Below are positions 16,662 through 21,452 of a DNA stretch of 38,639 nt, in pieces. The stretch is from positions 1-38,639 of IMG/VR virus record IMGVR_UViG_2778261594_000006. One strand, 5' to 3'. Every line of letters begins with the position of its first letter. The first letter of the stretch is position 1. The position numbers were made by a program, and so were the translations under genes. This DNA is from a virus (lineage: Duplodnaviria > Heunggongvirae > Uroviricota > Caudoviricetes). Under the pieces are notes generated by a model that did not search any database, was not told the DNA's origin, and saw only the letters and a list, made by a program, of their open reading frames with translations.

Positions 16662-16697
16662 GGCATGAGGTTGCGCTAACAACCTCATGCCGTTTTG
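16662..16697 (+). terminator. Strong hairpin (12-bp stem) with short U-tract in the Q-S intergenic leader
   Basis: GGCATGAGGTTG-cgctaa-CAACCTCATGCC followed by GTTTTG. Confidence 0.4.
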
Positions 16698-16816: not shown

Positions 16817-17140
16817 ATGAAGATGCCAGAAAAACATGACCTGTTAGCCGCCATTCTCGCGGCAAAGGAACAAGGCATCGGGGCAATCCTTGCGTTTGCA
16901 ATGGCGTACCTTCGCGGCAGATATAATGGCGGTGCGTTTACAAAAACAGTAATCGACGCAACGATGTGCGCCATTATCGCCTGGTTCATTCGTGACCTTC
17001 TCGACTTCGCCGGACTAAGTAGCAATCTCGCTTATATAACAAGCGTGTTTATCGGCTACATCGGCACTGACTCGATTGGTTCGCTTATCAAACGCTTCGC
17101 TGCTAAAAAAGCCGGAGTAGAAGATGGTGGAAATCAATAA
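16817..17140 (+). CDS. S: Holin, lambda S family (dual-start M-K-M)
   Basis: 107-aa ORF near-identical to my recollection of lambda S; upstream stem-loop CCCCTTACTGGGGG overlaps the RBS. Confidence 0.95.
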
Positions 17141-17600
17141 TCAACGTAAGGCGTTCCTCGATATGCTGGCGTGGTCAGAGGGAACTGATAACGGACGTCA
17201 GAAAACCAGAAATCATGGTTATGACGTCATTGTTGGCGGAGGGCTATTCACTGATTACTCCGATCACCCTCGCAAACTTGTCACGCTAAACCCCAAACTC
17301 AAATCAACAGCCGCCGGACGTTACCAGCTTCTTTCCCGTTGGTGGGATGCCTATCGTAAGCAGCTTGGCCTGAAAGACTTCTCTCCGAAAAGCCAGGACG
17401 CCGTTGCGCTGCAGCAGATTAAGGAGCGTGGCGCTTTACCGATGATTGATCGCGGTGATATTCGTCAGGCTATCGACCGTTGCAGCAATATCTGGGCTTC
17501 ACTGCCGGGCGCTGGTTATGGTCAGTTCGAGCATAAGGCTGACAGCCTGATTGCAAAATTCAAAGAAGCAGGCGGAATGGTCAGAGAGATTGAGGTATGA
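17124..17600 (+). CDS. R: Endolysin, lambda R-type lytic transglycosylase
   Basis: 158-aa [38 protein letters not shown]..., near-identical to lambda R as recalled. Confidence 0.95.
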
Positions 17601-18034
17601 GCAGAGTCACCGCGATTATCTCCGCTCTGGTTATCTGCATCATCGTCTGCCTGTCGTGGGCGGTCAATCATTACCGTGATAACGCCATCGCCTATAAAGA
17701 GCAGCGCGATAAGGCCACATCCACAATCGCTGACATGCAGAAGCGTCAACGTGATGTAGCAGAACTTGACGCCAGATACACAAAGGAGCTTGCTGATGCT
17801 AACGCGACTATCGAAAGTCTCCGTGCTGATGTTTCTGCTGGTCGTAAGCGCCTGCAAGTCGCCGCCACCTGTGCAAAGTCAACGACCGGAGCCAGCGGCA
17901 TGGGCAATGGAGAAAGCCCAAGACTTACAGCAGATGCTGAACTCAATTATTACCGTCTCCGAAGTGGAATCGACAGGATAACCGCGCAGGTTAACTACCT
18001 GCAGGAATACATCAGGACGCAATGCCTTCGATGA
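17597..18034 (+). CDS. Rz: Rz i-spanin
   Basis: 145-aa ORF with N-terminal TM and coiled-coil; N-terminal region near-identical to lambda Rz, C-terminal part diverged. Confidence 0.9.
17796..17981 (+). CDS. Rz1: Rz1 o-spanin (outer-membrane lipoprotein) embedded in the +1 frame of Rz
   Basis: ATG at 17796 with AAAGGAG RBS; signal peptide [20 protein letters not shown] with lipobox Cys; Pro-rich mature part. Confidence 0.7.
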
Positions 18035-18210
18035 TAGCGATAATTTTACTCATCATCCTTCACATCTGGCTCTGTCGGCAGGGTGGTGATCACTTCTGGA
18101 GTGAATCCAGATTAAACATCTCATTGCTGATGCTTGAAGTTAAGCATATGGCGCGCGGTAAGGGGCTGCGTGGAGATAAGAGCCAGATCATTACAAATAC
18201 CAGGATTTAG
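18022..18210 (+). CDS. Questionable small ORF (62 aa) after Rz
   Basis: Track ORF only; weak RBS; ends at the terminator hairpin. Confidence 0.2.
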
Positions 18211-18234
18211 CCTCGCATTCGCGGGGCTTTTTTA
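18210..18234 (+). terminator. Rho-independent terminator after the lysis cassette
   Basis: GCCUCGC-AUUC-GCGGGGC followed by TTTTTTA. Confidence 0.7.
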
Positions 18235-18377
18235 TATCTGAATTTCACAGCGCATCTCACGCGCATATTAACGAGAGCCTTTCAGTAAGCGAGCCTGAGA
18301 AATGCCGTTATAGGTGGCGACCTCTCTCGGGCGGCTTTTCTGTGAGACAGGTTCACTTTCTAAAAGGTAAAGACGCT

Positions 18378-18896
18378 ATGAATCATCAATTGGCTAATCT
18401 CGATTTCCGGGACATGGTGGTTGTTTCTGGTGATCGCGTGATCACAACCTCCCGCAAGGTAGCAGCTTACTTCGACAAGCAGCATCACCACATCATTCAG
18501 AAAATCGAAAAGCTAGACTGTTCGGATGAATTTCTAACCAGCAACTTTTCGCGGGTTACCTATGAACACAAGGGTAATCAGTATGTTGAATATGAAATTT
18601 CCAAAGACGGTGCGATGTACATCATCATGTCGTTTACCGGCAAAAAAGCTGCCGCCATCAAAGAGGCGTTTATCAAAGCATTTAATTGGATGCGTGACAG
18701 GCTGATGGAGATGGCTCACTCATACCAAAGAGAGCACAACGAGTTAATGCTGGAGGTCATGAAGGAAAAGGATGTTGCCAGTATGTCAGGACGCTTGCTG
18801 AACCGCTGGGGCAGGATCAAAAAACCGCAACTCATAGCAAGAATCGAAAGGCTTGAGCAGCAGGCGCAAATATCGATCCCCGGACTGCCAAAGTGA
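18378..18896 (+). CDS. rha: Rha-family phage regulatory protein
   Basis: ATG at 18378 with AAGG RBS; Rha-type N-terminal region (VVVSGDRVITTSRKVAAYFDKQHHHIIQKIEKL). Confidence 0.8.
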   Translation: MNHQLANLDFRDMVVVSGDRVITTSRKVAAYFDKQHHHIIQKIEKLDCSDEFLTSNFSRVTYEHKGNQYVEYEISKDGAMYIIMSFTGKKAAAIKEAFIKAFNWMRDRLMEMAHSYQREHNELMLEVMKEKDVASMSGRLLNRWGRIKKPQLIARIERLEQQAQISIPGLPK

Positions 18897-19354
18897 CCAT
18901 TCCAAAGCCCATCTACGGGTGGGCTTGATAATGAAACCGTGATTTACATCCCCACAATCCGGGTATGTAAAAGATAGTTCAGGCGAGAACAGATTTAACT
19001 AAATCTGTGCACCACCAGTTACGGCAGTACAGCGAAACAACCCAAGCCAGTAAGCGGGGAAATAACACTGGCAGCCACTGAAAGATGAACCTCCTGCCTT
19101 ATGGCAAAAAAGATTCTTTGTGGTGGCGGACTGATGGAAAGACATCCTAATTTCAGCCAAACATTGAAGGAGTTGTTATGTCAGCAGAAGGTTTCAATAA
19201 CCCATCAAAATTCCGGGATGAGTGGGATAGCAGCGTAAAGAGTAAGTGATGCCATCACAAAAGCCATTCCCTACAGAGTGGCTTTGATAATGGCTTATAC
19301 CCTACACGGGATAACTTAACTGATATCCCTTTTAACGGATAAACGGAGCCAACA

Positions 19355-19597
19355 ATGGCAGAGATTATTCCCATGACTGAAGAACAGAAATTCCAGTTAG
19401 AGATTTACAAACTGGTCATGAACCAGAACGCAGCCGCAGAAGAAGCATTTCAATTCATTGGCACTGACGAGCTGAAGCTTGAGCTATTCAAAATTCACTT
19501 CCAGTCAGGCGGCGCTAATTCGGATATCACGACCCGCACGATCGAAGCGGTGCGTAAATCGAAGGAAGCGTTAGACCTGTTCACCACCGGAGCATAA
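19355..19597 (+). CDS. Hypothetical small protein upstream of terminase
   Basis: 80-aa ORF directly preceding terS in the same orientation. Confidence 0.5.
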   Translation: MAEIIPMTEEQKFQLEIYKLVMNQNAAAEEAFQFIGTDELKLELFKIHFQSGGANSDITTRTIEAVRKSKEALDLFTTGA

Positions 19598-19599
19598 AC

Positions 19600-20040
19600 A
19601 TGGCGCGCCCAACAAAGTATCAAGAGGCGTATGCCGAACAGGCACGCAAACTGTGCTTGCTGGGCTACACCGATGCAGAACTTGCTGATTTCTTTGAAGT
19701 CAGTGAGTCAACTATTAACAAGTGGAAGCTTGATTATCCTAAGTTTTCGGAGTCCATAAAAAAGGGTAAGGCCGTCGCTGATGCAGAAGTTAGTGACCGT
19801 CTTTATCAACGCGCTATGGGCTTCGTGGCTCCAGACATCGATATTCGTGTTATTGAAAACAGAATTGTCGAAACTCCGCTTGAGAAGTATTACCCGCCTG
19901 ATACAACCGCTGCCATCTTCTGGCTTAAGAATCGACAGAAGGATAAATGGCGCGACAAGGTTGATCACGAGCTAACAGGCAAAGACGGCGGCGCAATCCA
20001 GATTGAAACATCACCGATGAGCACTCTATTCGGAAAATGA
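19600..20040 (+). CDS. Terminase small subunit (Sf6 gp1-like)
   Basis: 146-aa ORF; C-terminus ELTGKDGGAIQIETSPMSTLFGK matches the Sf6 TerS C-terminus as recalled; ATGA-coupled to terL. Confidence 0.8.
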   Translation: MARPTKYQEAYAEQARKLCLLGYTDAELADFFEVSESTINKWKLDYPKFSESIKKGKAVADAEVSDRLYQRAMGFVAPDIDIRVIENRIVETPLEKYYPPDTTAAIFWLKNRQKDKWRDKVDHELTGKDGGAIQIETSPMSTLFGK

Positions 20041-21452
20041 CCTCGATTAATCCTATCTTTGAACCGTTCATTGAGGCGCATCGCTACAAAGTCGCCAAAG
20101 GCGGTCGAGGTAGCGGTAAATCATGGGCAATTGCGAGGCTGCTTGTTGAAGCGGCGCGTCGGCAGCCTGTGCGTATTCTCTGCGCTCGTGAACTGCAAAA
20201 CAGTATCAGCGATTCGGTAATCCGGTTGCTTGAAGACACCATCGAGCGGGAAGGGTATTCGGCTGAGTTTGAAATTCAGCGTTCAATGATTCGTCATCTC
20301 GGAACGAATGCTGAATTCATGTTCTACGGAATCAAAAACAACCCGACGAAGATTAAATCGCTCGAAGGTATTGATATCTGCTGGGTGGAAGAAGCGGAAG
20401 CGGTAACGAAGGAATCATGGGATATCCTGATACCAACCATCCGCAAGCCGTTTTCCGAAATATGGGTGAGCTTTAACCCGAAGAACATCCTTGACGATAC
20501 CTATCAGCGATTCGTCGTAAATCCTCCAGATGATATTTGCCTGCTGACGGTGAACTACACCGACAACCCGCACTTTCCTGAAGTTCTCCGTCTGGAGATG
20601 GAAGAGTGTAAACGCAGAAACCCGACACTGTATCGTCACATCTGGCTTGGTGAGCCAGTAAGCGCAAGTGATATGGCAATCATCAAACGTGAATGGCTTG
20701 AAGCCGCAACCGATGCGCACAAGAAACTCGGATGGAAAGCGAAAGGCGCTGTTGTCTCTGCGCATGACCCGTCAGATACAGGGCCGGATGCTAAAGGTTA
20801 TGCATCGCGTCACGGTTCGGTAGTTAAGCGCATTGCCGAAGGTCTGCTGATGGATATCAACGAGGGTGCTGACTGGGCTACTTCGCTGGCAATTGAAGAC
20901 GGCGCTGACCATTACCTGTGGGATGGTGATGGTGTTGGTGCGGGGCTACGCAGACAGACAACGGAAGCGTTCTCCGGCAAGAAAATCACCGCCACGATGT
21001 TCAAGGGCAGCGAATCGCCATTCAATGAAGATGCACCGTATCAAGCCGGAGCATGGGCTGATGAAGTCGTACAGGGTGACAACGTTCGCACTATTGGCGA
21101 TGTATTCCGCAATAAGCGAGCGCAATTCTATTACGCGCTGGCTGACAGGCTGTATCTGACATATCGGGCGGTTGTTCACGGTGAGTATGCAGACCCCGAC
21201 GACATGCTGAGTTTCGACAAAGAAGCGATAGGCGAGAAGATGCTGGAGAAGCTGTTTGCAGAACTGACGCAGATTCAGCGCAAATTCAATAACAACGGGA
21301 AGCTGGAGCTTATGACTAAGGTCGAAATGAAGCAGAAGCTCGGTATTCCATCTCCTAACCTGGCTGATGCGCTGATGATGTGTATGCATTGCCCGGAGTC
21401 GGCTGCGCAACCCGACTATTCCAGTTACTCAATTCCTTGTGGTGTAGGTTGA
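20037..21452 (+). CDS. Terminase large subunit
   Basis: 471-aa ORF with Walker A GGRGSGKS and nuclease-domain acidic residues. Confidence 0.9.
   Translation: MTSINPIFEPFIEAHRYKVAKGGRGSGKSWAIARLLVEAARRQPVRILCARELQNSISDSVIRLLEDTIEREGYSAEFEIQRSMIRHLGTNAEFMFYGIKNNPTKIKSLEGIDICWVEEAEAVTKESWDILIPTIRKPFSEIWVSFNPKNILDDTYQRFVVNPPDDICLLTVNYTDNPHFPEVLRLEMEECKRRNPTLYRHIWLGEPVSASDMAIIKREWLEAATDAHKKLGWKAKGAVVSAHDPSDTGPDAKGYASRHGSVVKRIAEGLLMDINEGADWATSLAIEDGADHYLWDGDGVGAGLRRQTTEAFSGKKITATMFKGSESPFNEDAPYQAGAWADEVVQGDNVRTIGDVFRNKRAQFYYALADRLYLTYRAVVHGEYADPDDMLSFDKEAIGEKMLEKLFAELTQIQRKFNNNGKLELMTKVEMKQKLGIPSPNLADALMMCMHCPESAAQPDYSSYSIPCGVG

What the first reader, a model, noticed from the sequence alone, without database searches (positions are those of the whole stretch)
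18897..19354. About 460-bp region between the Rha moron and the packaging genes with no ORF of 60 aa or more and paired sequence motifs
The region contains a perfect palindrome CAGATTTA-ac-TAAATCTG (18991-19008) and two copies of a GCTTGATAATG-like motif (about 18921-18933 and 19280-19292), each next to a GCCCA/TGGGC or AGCCA/TGGCT hairpin. Only short ORFs are present, for example a 23-codon ORF at 19178-19249 with a GAAGGAG RBS. It could hold a small RNA, a regulatory site, or a small-peptide gene.
Basis: seen in the sequence. Interest (0 to 1): 0.4.

Follow-up and report, generated by a model that had tools for sequence, protein, structure and literature searches.

The report
Cassette-end RNA hairpins plus a micro-gene
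The "empty" 460 bp between the Rha gene and the packaging genes of this P22-like phage holds two copies of a widespread, apparently undescribed RNA hairpin that sits right after the stop codon of accessory genes, plus a real but unannotated 23-codon gene.

Summary

**Layout.** The region is the variable accessory-gene slot of the late operon, between the lysis and packaging genes. P22 carries its pid moron in the same slot. It is a mosaic of five segments.

**The two "GATAATG + hairpin" motifs** (18893-18938 and 19248-19297)
- They are two copies of one structured element: a lower stem, a 2x2 internal loop (5'-CA / 5'-GA) present in every copy seen, a 9-10 bp upper stem and a variable loop.
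- Each copy abuts the stop codon of an upstream gene.
- A pattern search that left the 7+7 stem positions free found at least 120 phage contigs. All 63 stem variants pair at 6-7 of 7 positions.
- G·U outnumbers A·C 67:1, so the element folds on the sense strand, most simply as late mRNA.
- No Rfam family matches it.
- Upstream genes include DUF2560, Sf6 gp66/N4 gp49, Acb2/Tad1, Tad2 and Rha.

**The 23-codon ORF** (19178-19249) is a real conserved gene. It has 21 DNA versions across eight genera. pN/pS is 0.39 in frame against about 0.95 out of frame.

**Other parts.** Segment C (19021-19146) is conserved non-coding DNA of unknown role. The palindrome belongs to one optional linker variant.

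**Function.** The hairpin's function is inferred, not shown. The most likely role is RNA processing or stability.

The parts
18342..18896 (+). Rha-family accessory gene (cassette 1). Its TGA stop (18894-18896) abuts hairpin copy 1.
   Evidence: ORF list. Pfam Phage_pRha 1e-23 and ORF11CD3 1e-22.
18893..18938 (+). Hairpin copy 1 ('type 1'). Lower stem CAUU (18898-18901) pairs with AAUG (18930-18933). The consensus internal-loop bases are CA (18903-18904) and GA (18927-18928). Upper stem AAGCCCAUC (18905-13) pairs with GGGUGGGCUU (18918-26). Apical loop UACG.
   Evidence: Covariance model R1, 59.3 bits, E 7e-12. Fold -18.4 kcal/mol, z -4.1. The same element follows at least 10 unrelated upstream sequences in other phages.
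18939..19020 (+). Linker 'B', one of at least 5 alternative sequences found between hairpin 1 and segment C. It contains the palindrome ACAGATTTA-ac-TAAATCTGT (18989-19008).
   Evidence: Absent or replaced in HK544, Emek, Huey, P22, HK97 and many IMG/VR loci. Among B-bearing loci the palindrome is perfect in 13 and has one G.U-type mismatch in 5.
19021..19146 (.). Segment 'C': conserved non-coding DNA with sharp mosaic borders on both sides. Function unknown.
   Evidence: 165 phage records carry it at 80-99% identity. There are 37 variable columns in 75 distinct sequences with no codon periodicity (11/14/12), plus 1-nt indels. No compensatory changes. No diverged coding homologue.
19166..19172 (+). 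Shine-Dalgarno sequence GAAGGAG of the micro-gene.
   Evidence: Sequence read directly. Homologues in other contexts also carry GGAG/GAGG 5-8 nt before the ATG.
19178..19249 (+). 23-codon gene MSAEGFNNPSKFRDEWDSSVKSK (cassette 2). Its TGA stop (19247-19249) abuts hairpin copy 2.
   Evidence: Same-length homologues occur in E. coli, Salmonella, Enterobacter, Atlantibacter, Trabulsiella, Cronobacter, Proteus and Providencia (pro)phages. pN/pS is 0.39 in frame (0.25 in the core) against 0.94 and 0.99 in the other frames.
19248..19297 (+). Hairpin copy 2 ('type 2'). Lower stem GCCAUCA (19251-57) pairs with UAAUGGC (19288-94). Internal loop CA (19258-59) / GA (19286-87). Upper stem AAAGCCAUUC (19260-69) pairs with GAGUGGCUUU (19276-85). 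Apical loop CCUACA.
   Evidence: Covariance model R1, 57.3 bits, E 2e-11. Fold -21.1 kcal/mol, z -5.1.
19298..19354 (+). Conserved leader of orf80/DUF2560. It contains a second small hairpin GGGAUA (19308-13) / UAUCCC (19324-29) followed by UUUU, and the SD GGAG (19346-49).
   Evidence: Identical or nearly identical in almost all related loci. Appears in the centroid fold.
19355..19597 (+). orf80 (DUF2560), the first conserved gene before the small terminase. It is the commonest neighbour of the hairpin in other phages.
   Evidence: Pfam DUF2560 1e-43. Neighbour counts. The AF2 model is a four-helix protein with no informative structural match.

Best explanation
The 460 bp are the accessory-gene slot of the late operon, between the lysis cassette and the packaging genes. 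They are built from small modules.

In this phage the slot reads, in order:
- Rha gene, then hairpin 1;
- optional linker B;
- conserved non-coding segment C;
- a 23-codon gene, then hairpin 2;
- the orf80 leader.

**Shown**
- The two hairpins are copies of one conserved structured element. It has a lower stem, a 2x2 internal loop (5'-CA / 5'-GA) present in every copy seen, and a 9-10 bp upper stem that usually ends in U.G, U-A, C-G.
- The element folds on the sense strand and sits directly after the stop codon of an upstream gene, some 20-40 nt before the next gene.
- The 23-codon ORF is conserved as a coding sequence under purifying selection.

**Inferred**
- The 23-codon ORF is a translated gene of the late operon.
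- The hairpins act in cis on the long late mRNA as intercistronic processing or stability signals. Their geometry is that of a T7-type RNase III site, or of a hairpin that protects a 3' or 5' end. This would let each accessory cassette be expressed and degraded independently of its neighbours.
- Because the same roughly 45-nt element ends many different cassettes, it also provides the shared sequence at which homologous recombination swaps cassettes. That would explain why mosaic joints fall exactly at its 5' edge.
For: **Mosaic structure and slot**
- Segment borders are sharp across related phages.
- The minimal architecture is Rz terminator, hairpin, orf80 (L036, L076, L065).
- P22 carries the pid moron at the same site (PMC3573128).

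**Hairpin is a conserved structure**
- Three E. coli/Salmonella sequence types differ by compensatory changes in both stems.
- In alignment A1, 93% of cells pair against 31-50% in slid controls. Eight pairs change on both sides. The covariation score is 0.383 against 0.236, with 0 of 500 shuffles as high.
- Diverged copies in Proteus, Providencia, Enterobacter and Trabulsiella keep the same architecture with different stem sequences.
- The search ATTACA-N7-TTC-N3-6-GAG-N7-GATAAT left the stems unconstrained. It gave at least 120 contigs and 63 stem combinations, of which 56 pair at 7/7 and 7 at 6/7.
- In alignment A5 (93 distinct sequences), 96.3% of cells pair and 13 of 17 pairs change on both sides. 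All five measures score 0/500.

**Strand**
- G.U against A.C is 64:8 in A1 and 67:1 in the unconstrained stems.

**Position**
- In 98 of 126 instances an upstream ORF of at least 40 codons ends 1-14 nt before ATTACA, most often 1-5 nt. The next ORF usually starts 20-40 nt downstream.
- Arrays of 2-3 hairpins about 300 nt apart occur.
- Flanking gene families are listed.

**Micro-gene**
-.
Against: - No experiment or transcript data bear on processing here. RNase III cleavage, end protection and translation of the peptide are all untested.
- The many copies are related by descent, so the number of independent compensatory events is smaller than the cell counts suggest.
- A5 was aligned to the model and therefore leans towards its structure.
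- In the pattern-derived set, the apparent invariance of ATTACA, TTC, GAG and GATAAT is imposed by the pattern. The model-found copies are also biased towards CA/GA.
- G.T pairs are tolerated in folded single-stranded DNA too, so sense-strand DNA folding is not excluded.
- Segment C and linker B remain unexplained by this model.
Confidence: 0.55

Rival explanations
1. The hairpins are primarily DNA-level 'boundary' sequences. They would be short shared repeats, kept because recombination between them shuffles accessory cassettes as with T4 PeSLs, and would have no RNA function of their own.
For: - The mosaic joints to at least 10 unrelated upstream modules fall exactly at the 5' edge of the hairpin.
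- Chimeric hairpins exist whose 3' lower-stem strand comes from another type: L068, L043, L011, L064, L087 and P22.
- Arrays of gene-hairpin units occur.
- The PeSL precedent is documented (PMC2839356).
Against: - Recombination needs sequence identity, not pairing. Yet across genera the stems change sequence while keeping complementarity.
- The 67:1 excess of G.U over A.C points to a folded single strand of one polarity.
- The CA/GA loop and a conserved U.G pair (85 of 93 sequences) are not explained by recombination.
Confidence: 0.15
2. The hairpins tune translation rather than RNA ends. A stable stem abutting the stop codon would slow termination or ribosome release and lower output of the upstream cassette, as reported for REP elements within about 15 nt of a stop codon. 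Alternatively it would control ribosome access to the next gene.
For: - The stop codon lies 1-5 nt before ATTACA in most instances, so it is at or inside the lower stem.
- The next start codon lies mostly 20-40 nt after the hairpin.
- The REP precedent (Liang, Rudd and Deutscher 2015) is cited from my own knowledge and was not checked here.
Against: - A generic stable stem would be enough for this. It would not explain the constant internal loop, the conserved U.G pair or the fixed 9-10 bp upper stem.
- Some copies follow non-coding DNA, such as type 3 after segment C.
Confidence: 0.15
3. The region encodes a trans-acting small RNA. This would be either segment C released from the late transcript by cleavage at its flanking hairpins, or a minus-strand transcript ending at the terminator-like hairpin at 19111-19090.
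For: - C is non-coding, retained in 165 phage records, and usually bracketed by two hairpins.
- The scan and the phage L annotators both predict a minus-strand terminator-like site.
- ORF-less inter-hairpin segments also exist in Klebsiella phages.
Against: - No promoter-like site on either strand and no Rfam hit.
- Folding z-scores are only -1.2 on the plus strand and -2.1 on the minus strand. No covariation.
- C is confined to E. coli, Salmonella and Shigella phages plus one Klebsiella record, a narrower range than the hairpin or the micro-gene.
- The BTP1 prophage transcriptome paper does not report an sRNA here, as far as I read it (PMC7067206).
Confidence: 0.1
4. Apart from ordinary operon punctuation the region is decaying filler: remnants of former morons with chance hairpins and a chance short ORF.
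For: - Linker B and the palindrome are dispensable in relatives.
- C has no detectable signal of function beyond being retained.
Against: - The hairpin and the micro-ORF are each conserved across genera with selection signatures.
- Phage genomes are under strong size constraint.
Confidence: 0.05

Closest known systems
T7-type RNase III processing signals (e.g. R1.1) and lambda sib retroregulation. Cited from my own knowledge of the literature.
   Same: - Intercistronic hairpins in a long polycistronic phage mRNA.
- About two helical turns of stem, split by an internal loop into an upper stem of roughly 10 bp and a lower stem.
- The hairpin sits immediately 3' of a gene, where a cut would leave a protective 3' hairpin (T7) or expose the upstream gene to decay (sib).
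   Different: - The internal loop here is a small symmetric 2x2 loop (CA/GA), constant in sequence. T7 loops are larger and asymmetric.
- Cleavage has not been tested.
- The copies are confined to the lysis-packaging slot rather than spread along the operon; only 2 occur in 38.6 kb.
T4-type PeSL regulatory cassettes (promoter-early stem-loops), Arbiol et al. 2010, PMC2839356
   Same: Repeated short stem-loop motifs flank small non-essential genes in hyperplastic regions. Recombination between them explains insertion, deletion and replacement of genes.
   Different: - PeSLs combine a strong sigma-70 promoter with a terminator. No promoter-like or terminator-like site is found at the hairpins here.
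- The structure here, not just the sequence, is conserved across genera.
REP/BIME extragenic palindromes. Cited from my own knowledge.
   Same: Imperfect palindromes lie just 3' of genes, often after the stop codon, sometimes preceded by GTAG. They are known to stabilise upstream mRNA and, when close to a stop codon, to lower translation.
   Different: - REPs are dispersed in hundreds of copies over the host chromosome and are linked to RAYT transposases. This element has 1-3 copies per phage in one slot.
- It has a different consensus and a fixed internal loop.
Integron attC sites
   Same: A structured, sequence-variable hairpin ends each small gene cassette. Cassettes occur in arrays at one genomic slot and carry adaptive accessory genes.
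   Different: - No GTTRRRY/RYYYAAC core sites.
- No IntI/attI next to the arrays. The neighbours are lysis and terminase genes.
- Folding signals are on the sense strand, whereas attC recombines as the folded bottom strand.
P22 pid moron locus (Cenens et al. 2013, PMC3573128; Wolput et al. 2022, PMC8835761)
   Same: It occupies the same genomic slot, between 'orf25' and orf80. The slot was already recognised as a site where related phages carry no insert or different inserts.
   Different: - pid is a minus-strand gene with its own promoter and terminator, inserted just after the hairpin.
- Neither paper, as far as I read them, describes the hairpin or the 23-codon gene.
- P22 'orf25' is an ORF call lying over the hairpin itself.

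Membership tests
Any Rfam 15 family | Covariance-model score at or above the family's gathering threshold | tested here: not met
   - Nothing in the window reaches a gathering threshold.
- In 18300-19900 the only matches with E up to 10 are far below threshold and look like chance (mir-458, mir-723, Proteo-phage-1 at 16.8 against 42 bits).
- No family matches the hairpins in 24 other loci that carry them.
Intrinsic (Rho-independent) terminator | G+C-rich stem-loop followed directly by a U tract | tested here: not met
   The terminator scan finds none at either hairpin. The stems are followed by GAUAAUGAAACC and GGCUUAUACC.
T7-type RNase III processing signal | About 20 bp of helix interrupted by an internal loop, lying between cistrons of a phage polycistronic mRNA | tested here: met
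   - Lower stem of 5-9 bp, a 2x2 loop and an upper stem of 9-10 bp.
- Located between a stop codon and the next gene.
T7-type RNase III processing signal | Specific cleavage by RNase III in vivo or in vitro | not testable with these tools
   Needs end mapping in rnc+ and rnc- hosts, or an in vitro cleavage assay.
REP/BIME elements | High-copy dispersal through intergenic regions of the genome, with RAYT association | tested here: not met
   Only two copies in the 38.6-kb window, both in one slot, and 1-3 per related locus. Host chromosomes outside prophages could not be scanned.
Integron attC / gene cassette | A structured site at the 3' end of each cassette, with cassettes in arrays | tested here: met
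   Stop-codon adjacency in 98 of 126 instances. Arrays of 2-3 units about 300 nt apart.
Integron attC / gene cassette | R/L core sites (GTTRRRY) and an adjacent IntI integrase with attI | tested here: not met
   The conserved bases are ATTACA ... GATAAT. Flanking families are lysis, DUF2560, HNH and terminase genes; one integrase appears among 96 downstream ORFs.
T4 PeSL | A sigma-70 early promoter joined to a terminator stem-loop | tested here: not met
   - No promoter-like site in 18000-20000, and no terminator-like site at the hairpins.
- GATAAT resembles a -10 hexamer. However, the Providencia (GAUAGAG) and type 3 (GACAAU) variants lose that resemblance while keeping pairing.
Pfam DUF2740 (for the 23-aa product) | Score at or above the gathering cut-off of 27 bits | tested here: not met
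   Four family members score 12.9-13.5 bits (E 0.06-0.09), aligned to profile positions 19-32 of 43. This is a lead only. There are no PHROG or NCBIfam hits.
Protein-coding gene (for ORF 19178-19249) | Conserved reading frame, length, start context and purifying selection in that frame only | tested here: met
   - 21 DNA versions, nearly all of exactly 23 codons or with short N-terminal extensions.
- A ribosome-binding site is present in unrelated contexts.
- pN/pS is 0.39 against 0.94 and 0.99 in the other frames.

The most novel reading that the evidence does not exclude
The hairpin is the defining signal of a phage gene-cassette system, a functional counterpart of integron attC sites. A folded sense-strand element at the end of each small accessory gene would be recognised by a still unidentified phage or host factor. 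That factor would capture, excise or reshuffle cassettes in the slot upstream of the packaging genes. The cassettes include anti-defence genes such as the Acb2/Tad1, Tad2 and gp49/gp66 families, and micro-genes. On this reading the element would be a direct genomic marker for discovering new anti-defence genes.
Probability: 0.1. Interest if true: 0.85.

Novelty: new variant of a known kind. Interest (0 to 1): 0.6.

Why it matters
- **A new conserved RNA structure.** If the hairpin is a functional RNA signal, it is found in temperate phages and prophages of at least eleven enterobacterial genera. It would be a rare example of post-transcriptional punctuation inside a lambdoid late operon, where gene expression is usually explained by Q antitermination alone.
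- **A search handle for accessory genes.** The hairpin marks the 3' end of accessory cassettes in a slot that holds Acb2/Tad1-like, Tad2-like and Sf6 gp66/N4 gp49-like genes. It therefore gives a sequence-and-structure query for finding accessory and anti-defence genes, and very small genes that gene callers miss.
- **An unannotated small gene.** The 23-codon gene was not annotated in any record I examined. Its alternative position, between DUF2560 and terS, occurs in 212 of 5426 complete E. coli genomes.
- **Doubtful ORF calls in reference genomes.** Three published calls probably lie over non-coding elements: P22 orf25, the N-terminus of ST64T/L orf118, and Emek orf53.

Tried and rejected
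**Searches and tests that gave nothing useful**
- **tRNA or tmRNA genes:** none in the window.
- **Rfam families:** none at the hairpins.
- **Promoter or plus-strand terminator in the region:** none.
- **Segment C as a protein gene, including the 53-aa minus-strand ORF that spans it exactly:** rejected. There is no codon periodicity, and 1-nt indels occur, including A6/A7 length variation inside the ST64T orf118 start region.
- **Segment C as a decayed gene:** six-frame tblastn against all 237 loci found only C itself.
- **Segment C as a structured RNA:** RNAalifold on 54 distinct sequences shows no compensatory change on either strand.
- **DUF2560 as an obligatory protein partner of the hairpin:** rejected. 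It is present in only 30 of 120 hairpin loci.
- **DUF2560 structure:** the AF2 model (pLDDT 82, four helices) has no PDB fold match with E at or below 0.001.
- **GATAAT as a -10 promoter element:** rejected as the main constraint. See the PeSL row in the membership test.
- **AAUG in the 3' lower stem as a sequestered start codon:** rejected. Proteus, Providencia and several other variants have no ATG there.

**Literature**
- Searches for a description of the hairpin, the peptide, DUF2740 or DUF2560 found nothing relevant.
- The library does not hold the HK620 (Clark 2001) or Sf6 (Casjens 2004) genome papers that define 'boundary sequences'. Overlap with those papers therefore could not be excluded.
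Full report
**Setting.** The window is a P22-like podophage (Lederbergvirus; Sf6, HK620 and Gally relatives). The local gene order is:
- holin 16817-17140
- lysozyme 17124-17600
- Rz 17597-18034
- an intrinsic terminator at 18209-18228
- a Rha-family gene 18342-18896
- the 458-bp region in question
- orf80/DUF2560 19355-19597
- small terminase 19600-20040
- large terminase 20037-21452
- portal from 21454

This rests. All of these genes are on the plus strand and belong to the late operon.

**Observation check.**
- The palindrome is at 18990-19007, one base off, and extends to 9-nt arms at 18989-19008.
- The two GATAATG-like motifs are at 18919-18933 and 19278-19292 and are 13/15 identical.
- Each motif is the 3' half of a hairpin that folds far better than shuffled sequence, with z -4.1 and -5.1.
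- The 23-codon ORF is at 19178-19249. GAAGGAG lies 5 nt upstream of its ATG.
- No ORF reaches 60 aa.
- A perfect 9-nt-arm palindrome arises in about 0.8% of shuffles of the region. The whole window has two of them, so it is only mildly unusual.

**The region is a mosaic.**
- Parts of it occur in 206 phage records and in 2570 of 5426 complete E. coli genomes. Only 4 phage records and 73 genomes carry at least 80% of it in one piece.
- Local BLAST against 88 related loci resolves five segments with sharp borders:
  - A, 18897 to about 18946: hairpin 1.
  - B, up to 19003-19023: a linker holding the palindrome. It is replaced by at least four other sequences, or absent, in relatives.
  - C, 19021-19146: present almost everywhere.
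  - D, 19147/52 to 19253/75: holds the 23-codon ORF here. Sf6, IME10 and Huey carry gene 66 instead. HK620 and P22 carry only about 24 bp.
  - E, to 19354: hairpin 2 plus the orf80 leader.
- Some phages have the minimal arrangement Rz terminator, hairpin, leader, orf80, with no accessory gene at all (L036, L076, L065).
- P22 has Rha, then C, then a hairpin, then the minus-strand pid moron, then orf80.
- This site was already noted as one where related phages have no insert or different inserts (PMC3573128; PMC8835761).

**The two motifs are copies of one structured element.**
- In E. coli and Salmonella phages the hairpin comes in three sequence types:
  - type 1: CAUUA-CA-AAGCCCAUC...GGGUGGGCUU-GA-UAAUG
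  - type 2: GCCAUUA-CA-AAAGCCAUUC...GAGUGGCUUU-GA-UAAUGGC
  - type 3: GUUAUUG-CA-GAGACCAUUC...GAGUGGUCUC-GA-CAAUGGC
- The types share one architecture but differ by compensatory changes in both stems.
- In two loci (L034, L068) a single element matches both window copies.
- On a MAFFT alignment of 38 distinct sequences:
  - 93% of cells pair, against 31-50% when partners are slid.
  - Eight pairs change on both sides.
  - The covariation score exceeds all 500 shuffles.
- A covariance model built from that alignment finds only the two copies in the whole window, both on the plus strand.
- The same model finds diverged copies in Proteus, Providencia, Enterobacter and Trabulsiella (pro)phages. 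These have different stem sequences but the same lower stem, CA/GA loop and upper stem plan.

**An unbiased test of the structure.**
- I searched IMG/VR for ATTACA-N7-TTC-N3-6-GAG-N7-GATAAT, which puts no constraint on the 7+7 stem positions.
- Among 63 distinct stem combinations, 56 pair at all seven positions and seven pair at six.
- Columns whose composition would give about 50% pairing by chance pair in 98-99% of sequences.
- On 93 distinct model hits, 96.3% of cells pair and 13 of 17 pairs change on both sides. All five measures beat every shuffle. This alignment was fitted to the model, so it leans towards the structure.
- G.U pairs outnumber A.C 67:1 in the unconstrained stems and 64:8 in the first alignment. 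One U.G pair near the loop is kept in 85 of 93 sequences.
- The element therefore folds on the sense strand. The simplest reading is that it folds as late mRNA.
- It is not in Rfam 15.
- I found no paper describing it. The HK620 and Sf6 genome papers that define 'boundary sequences' are not in the searchable library.

**Position and neighbours.**
- In the window, Rha's TGA (18894-18896) and the micro-ORF's TGA (19247-19249) lie 1-2 nt before the two lower stems.
- In 13 diverged copies, an upstream ORF of 52-212 codons ends within -4 to +2 nt of the model start.
- Among the 126 pattern hits, 98 have an ORF of at least 40 codons ending 1-14 nt before ATTACA, most often 1-5 nt. The next ORF usually starts 20-40 nt after the hairpin.
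- Several contigs carry two or three hairpins about 300 nt apart.
- Upstream genes, of 89 scanned: DUF2560 (15), Sf6 gp66/N4 gp49 family (9), Acb2/Tad1 (6), Rha (4), DUF826 (4), Tad2-like (1) and spanin genes.
- Downstream genes, of 96 scanned: DUF2560, small terminases, HNH endonucleases and ParB-like proteins.
- The element therefore ends accessory cassettes in the slot between the lysis and packaging genes. Several of those cassettes belong to known anti-defence families.
- BLAST of two of these loci matched phages of Klebsiella, Serratia, Pectobacterium and Pantoea, among other hosts. A hairpin copy was confirmed by the model only in the Klebsiella phage.

**What the hairpin does is inferred.**
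- It is not a terminator, because no U tract follows it.
- It is not a promoter. Variants lose the -10 resemblance but keep pairing.
- Its geometry is about two helical turns split by a small internal loop, between cistrons of a long phage mRNA. That is the geometry of T7-type RNase III sites (my knowledge of that literature). An RNA processing or end-protection role is therefore my leading hypothesis.
- A stop-codon-proximal translational role is a live rival, as reported for REP elements.
- Recombination between copies very probably contributes to cassette exchange, as with T4 PeSLs (PMC2839356). The evidence is:
  - Joints to at least 10 different upstream modules fall exactly at its 5' edge.
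  - Chimeric hairpins exist.
- Recombination alone does not explain the covariation, the strand asymmetry or the constant loop.

**The 23-codon ORF is a gene.**
- A same-length homologue, MATQGFDNPSKFRDEWDKQAEGK, lies between orf80 and the small terminase in many relatives. Its ATG is 3 nt after the orf80 stop.
- In the conserved core the two versions differ by three synonymous changes and one N/D change.
- Homologues are present in Proteus, Providencia, Cronobacter, Enterobacter, Atlantibacter and Trabulsiella (pro)phages. Most have exactly 23 codons, and each has its own Shine-Dalgarno sequence in unrelated flanking DNA.
- The Trabulsiella copy, like the window's, is followed at once by a hairpin.
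- Across 19 distinct 72-nt versions, pN/pS is 0.39 (0.25 in the core) in this frame. In the other two frames it is 0.94 and 0.99.
- The gene is unannotated in every record I examined. ORF calls in other frames overlie it in Emek, Pm34 and PSTNGR2lys.
- The only family signal is a sub-threshold match to Pfam DUF2740 at 13 bits against a cut-off of 27.
- Its function is unknown. Its constant place at the head of the packaging module is the only clue.

**What remains unexplained.**
- **Segment C** is non-coding. It has no periodicity and carries 1-nt indels. It shows no covariation and no diverged coding relative. It is limited to E. coli, Salmonella and Shigella phages plus one Klebsiella record. 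It may be a cis element, a processed RNA or a retained remnant.
- **Linker B and its palindrome** are optional.
- **DUF2560** is a frequent but not obligatory neighbour, present in 30 of 120 loci. Its predicted four-helix fold matches nothing informative.

**Verdict.**
- The finding is real and more interesting than a spacer.
- It contains a new, widespread, well-supported structured element that ends accessory cassettes. Its function is unproven.
- It also contains a genuine unannotated micro-gene.
- Both are set in a moron slot that was already known.

Noticed in passing
P22 (L093 1650-1727), ST64T/L (L094 and L096 1590-1946), Emek (L004 2633-2794): Three annotated ORFs lie over non-coding elements and are probably spurious or mis-started. 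P22 'orf25' starts inside the type 3 hairpin. The first ~30 codons of ST64T/L 'orf118' span the end of segment C and the hairpin. Emek 'orf53' spans the C/D border out of frame with the 23-codon gene.
   Followed up: partly
IMG/VR loci L117-L236 (upstream ORFs, alignment A3): Genes that end at the hairpin include Acb2/Tad1-hairpin-domain (6), Tad2-like (1) and Sf6 gp66/N4 gp49 (9) families. The slot between lysis and packaging genes therefore looks like an anti-defence and accessory hot spot, and the hairpin could serve as a marker for it.
   Followed up: partly
L189 6681-6966; L224 between its two hairpins: Some inter-hairpin segments of about 260-290 nt in other phages (L189 matches mainly Klebsiella phages) contain no ORF of 35 aa or more. 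This resembles the B-C stretch in the window. They show no sequence similarity to segment C.
   Followed up: partly
window 19308-19333: The conserved orf80 leader has a second small hairpin, GGGAUA-N10-UAUCCC, followed by UUUU, about 12 nt before the SD. It looks like a weak terminator or attenuator and is nearly invariant in relatives.
   Followed up: no
window 16665-16688: This is the only other perfect 9-nt-arm palindrome in the window: ATGAGGTTG-cgctaa-CAACCTCAT. It lies about 130 nt upstream of the holin gene, in the late leader region.
   Followed up: no
window 19090-19111 (minus strand): A terminator-like hairpin with many G.U pairs lies on the minus strand inside segment C. The phage L record annotates a minus-strand terminator at the homologous place (L096 1567-1611). 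Nothing obvious is transcribed towards it in this phage.
   Followed up: partly
L097 (Cellvibrionaceae MAG) and L098 (Candidatus Nanosynbacter MAG): Contigs binned into these MAGs carry the window-type 23-codon gene, identical at the peptide level, with near-identical flanking DNA and hairpin 2. They are most likely mis-binned enterobacterial phage DNA.
   Followed up: no
L131 1019-1083: An Rfam int-alpA RNA match (44.9 bits, gathering 35.8) begins at the last bases of a hairpin copy (974-1020). It was seen once among 24 loci scanned.
   Followed up: partly
Proteins P0001-P0008 and others: Many database entries for DUF2560 are 102-129 aa instead of 80. Gene callers apparently started them upstream, probably in the leader or hairpin. 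These are probably wrong starts.
   Followed up: no
E. coli complete genomes: The alternative-position copy of the micro-gene (orf80, micro-gene, next gene) is present in 212 of 5426 complete genomes. It precedes different packaging genes: terS-like, gp4-family, DNA-packaging protein and PBSX TerL. It therefore seems to travel with DUF2560 rather than with a particular terminase.
   Followed up: partly
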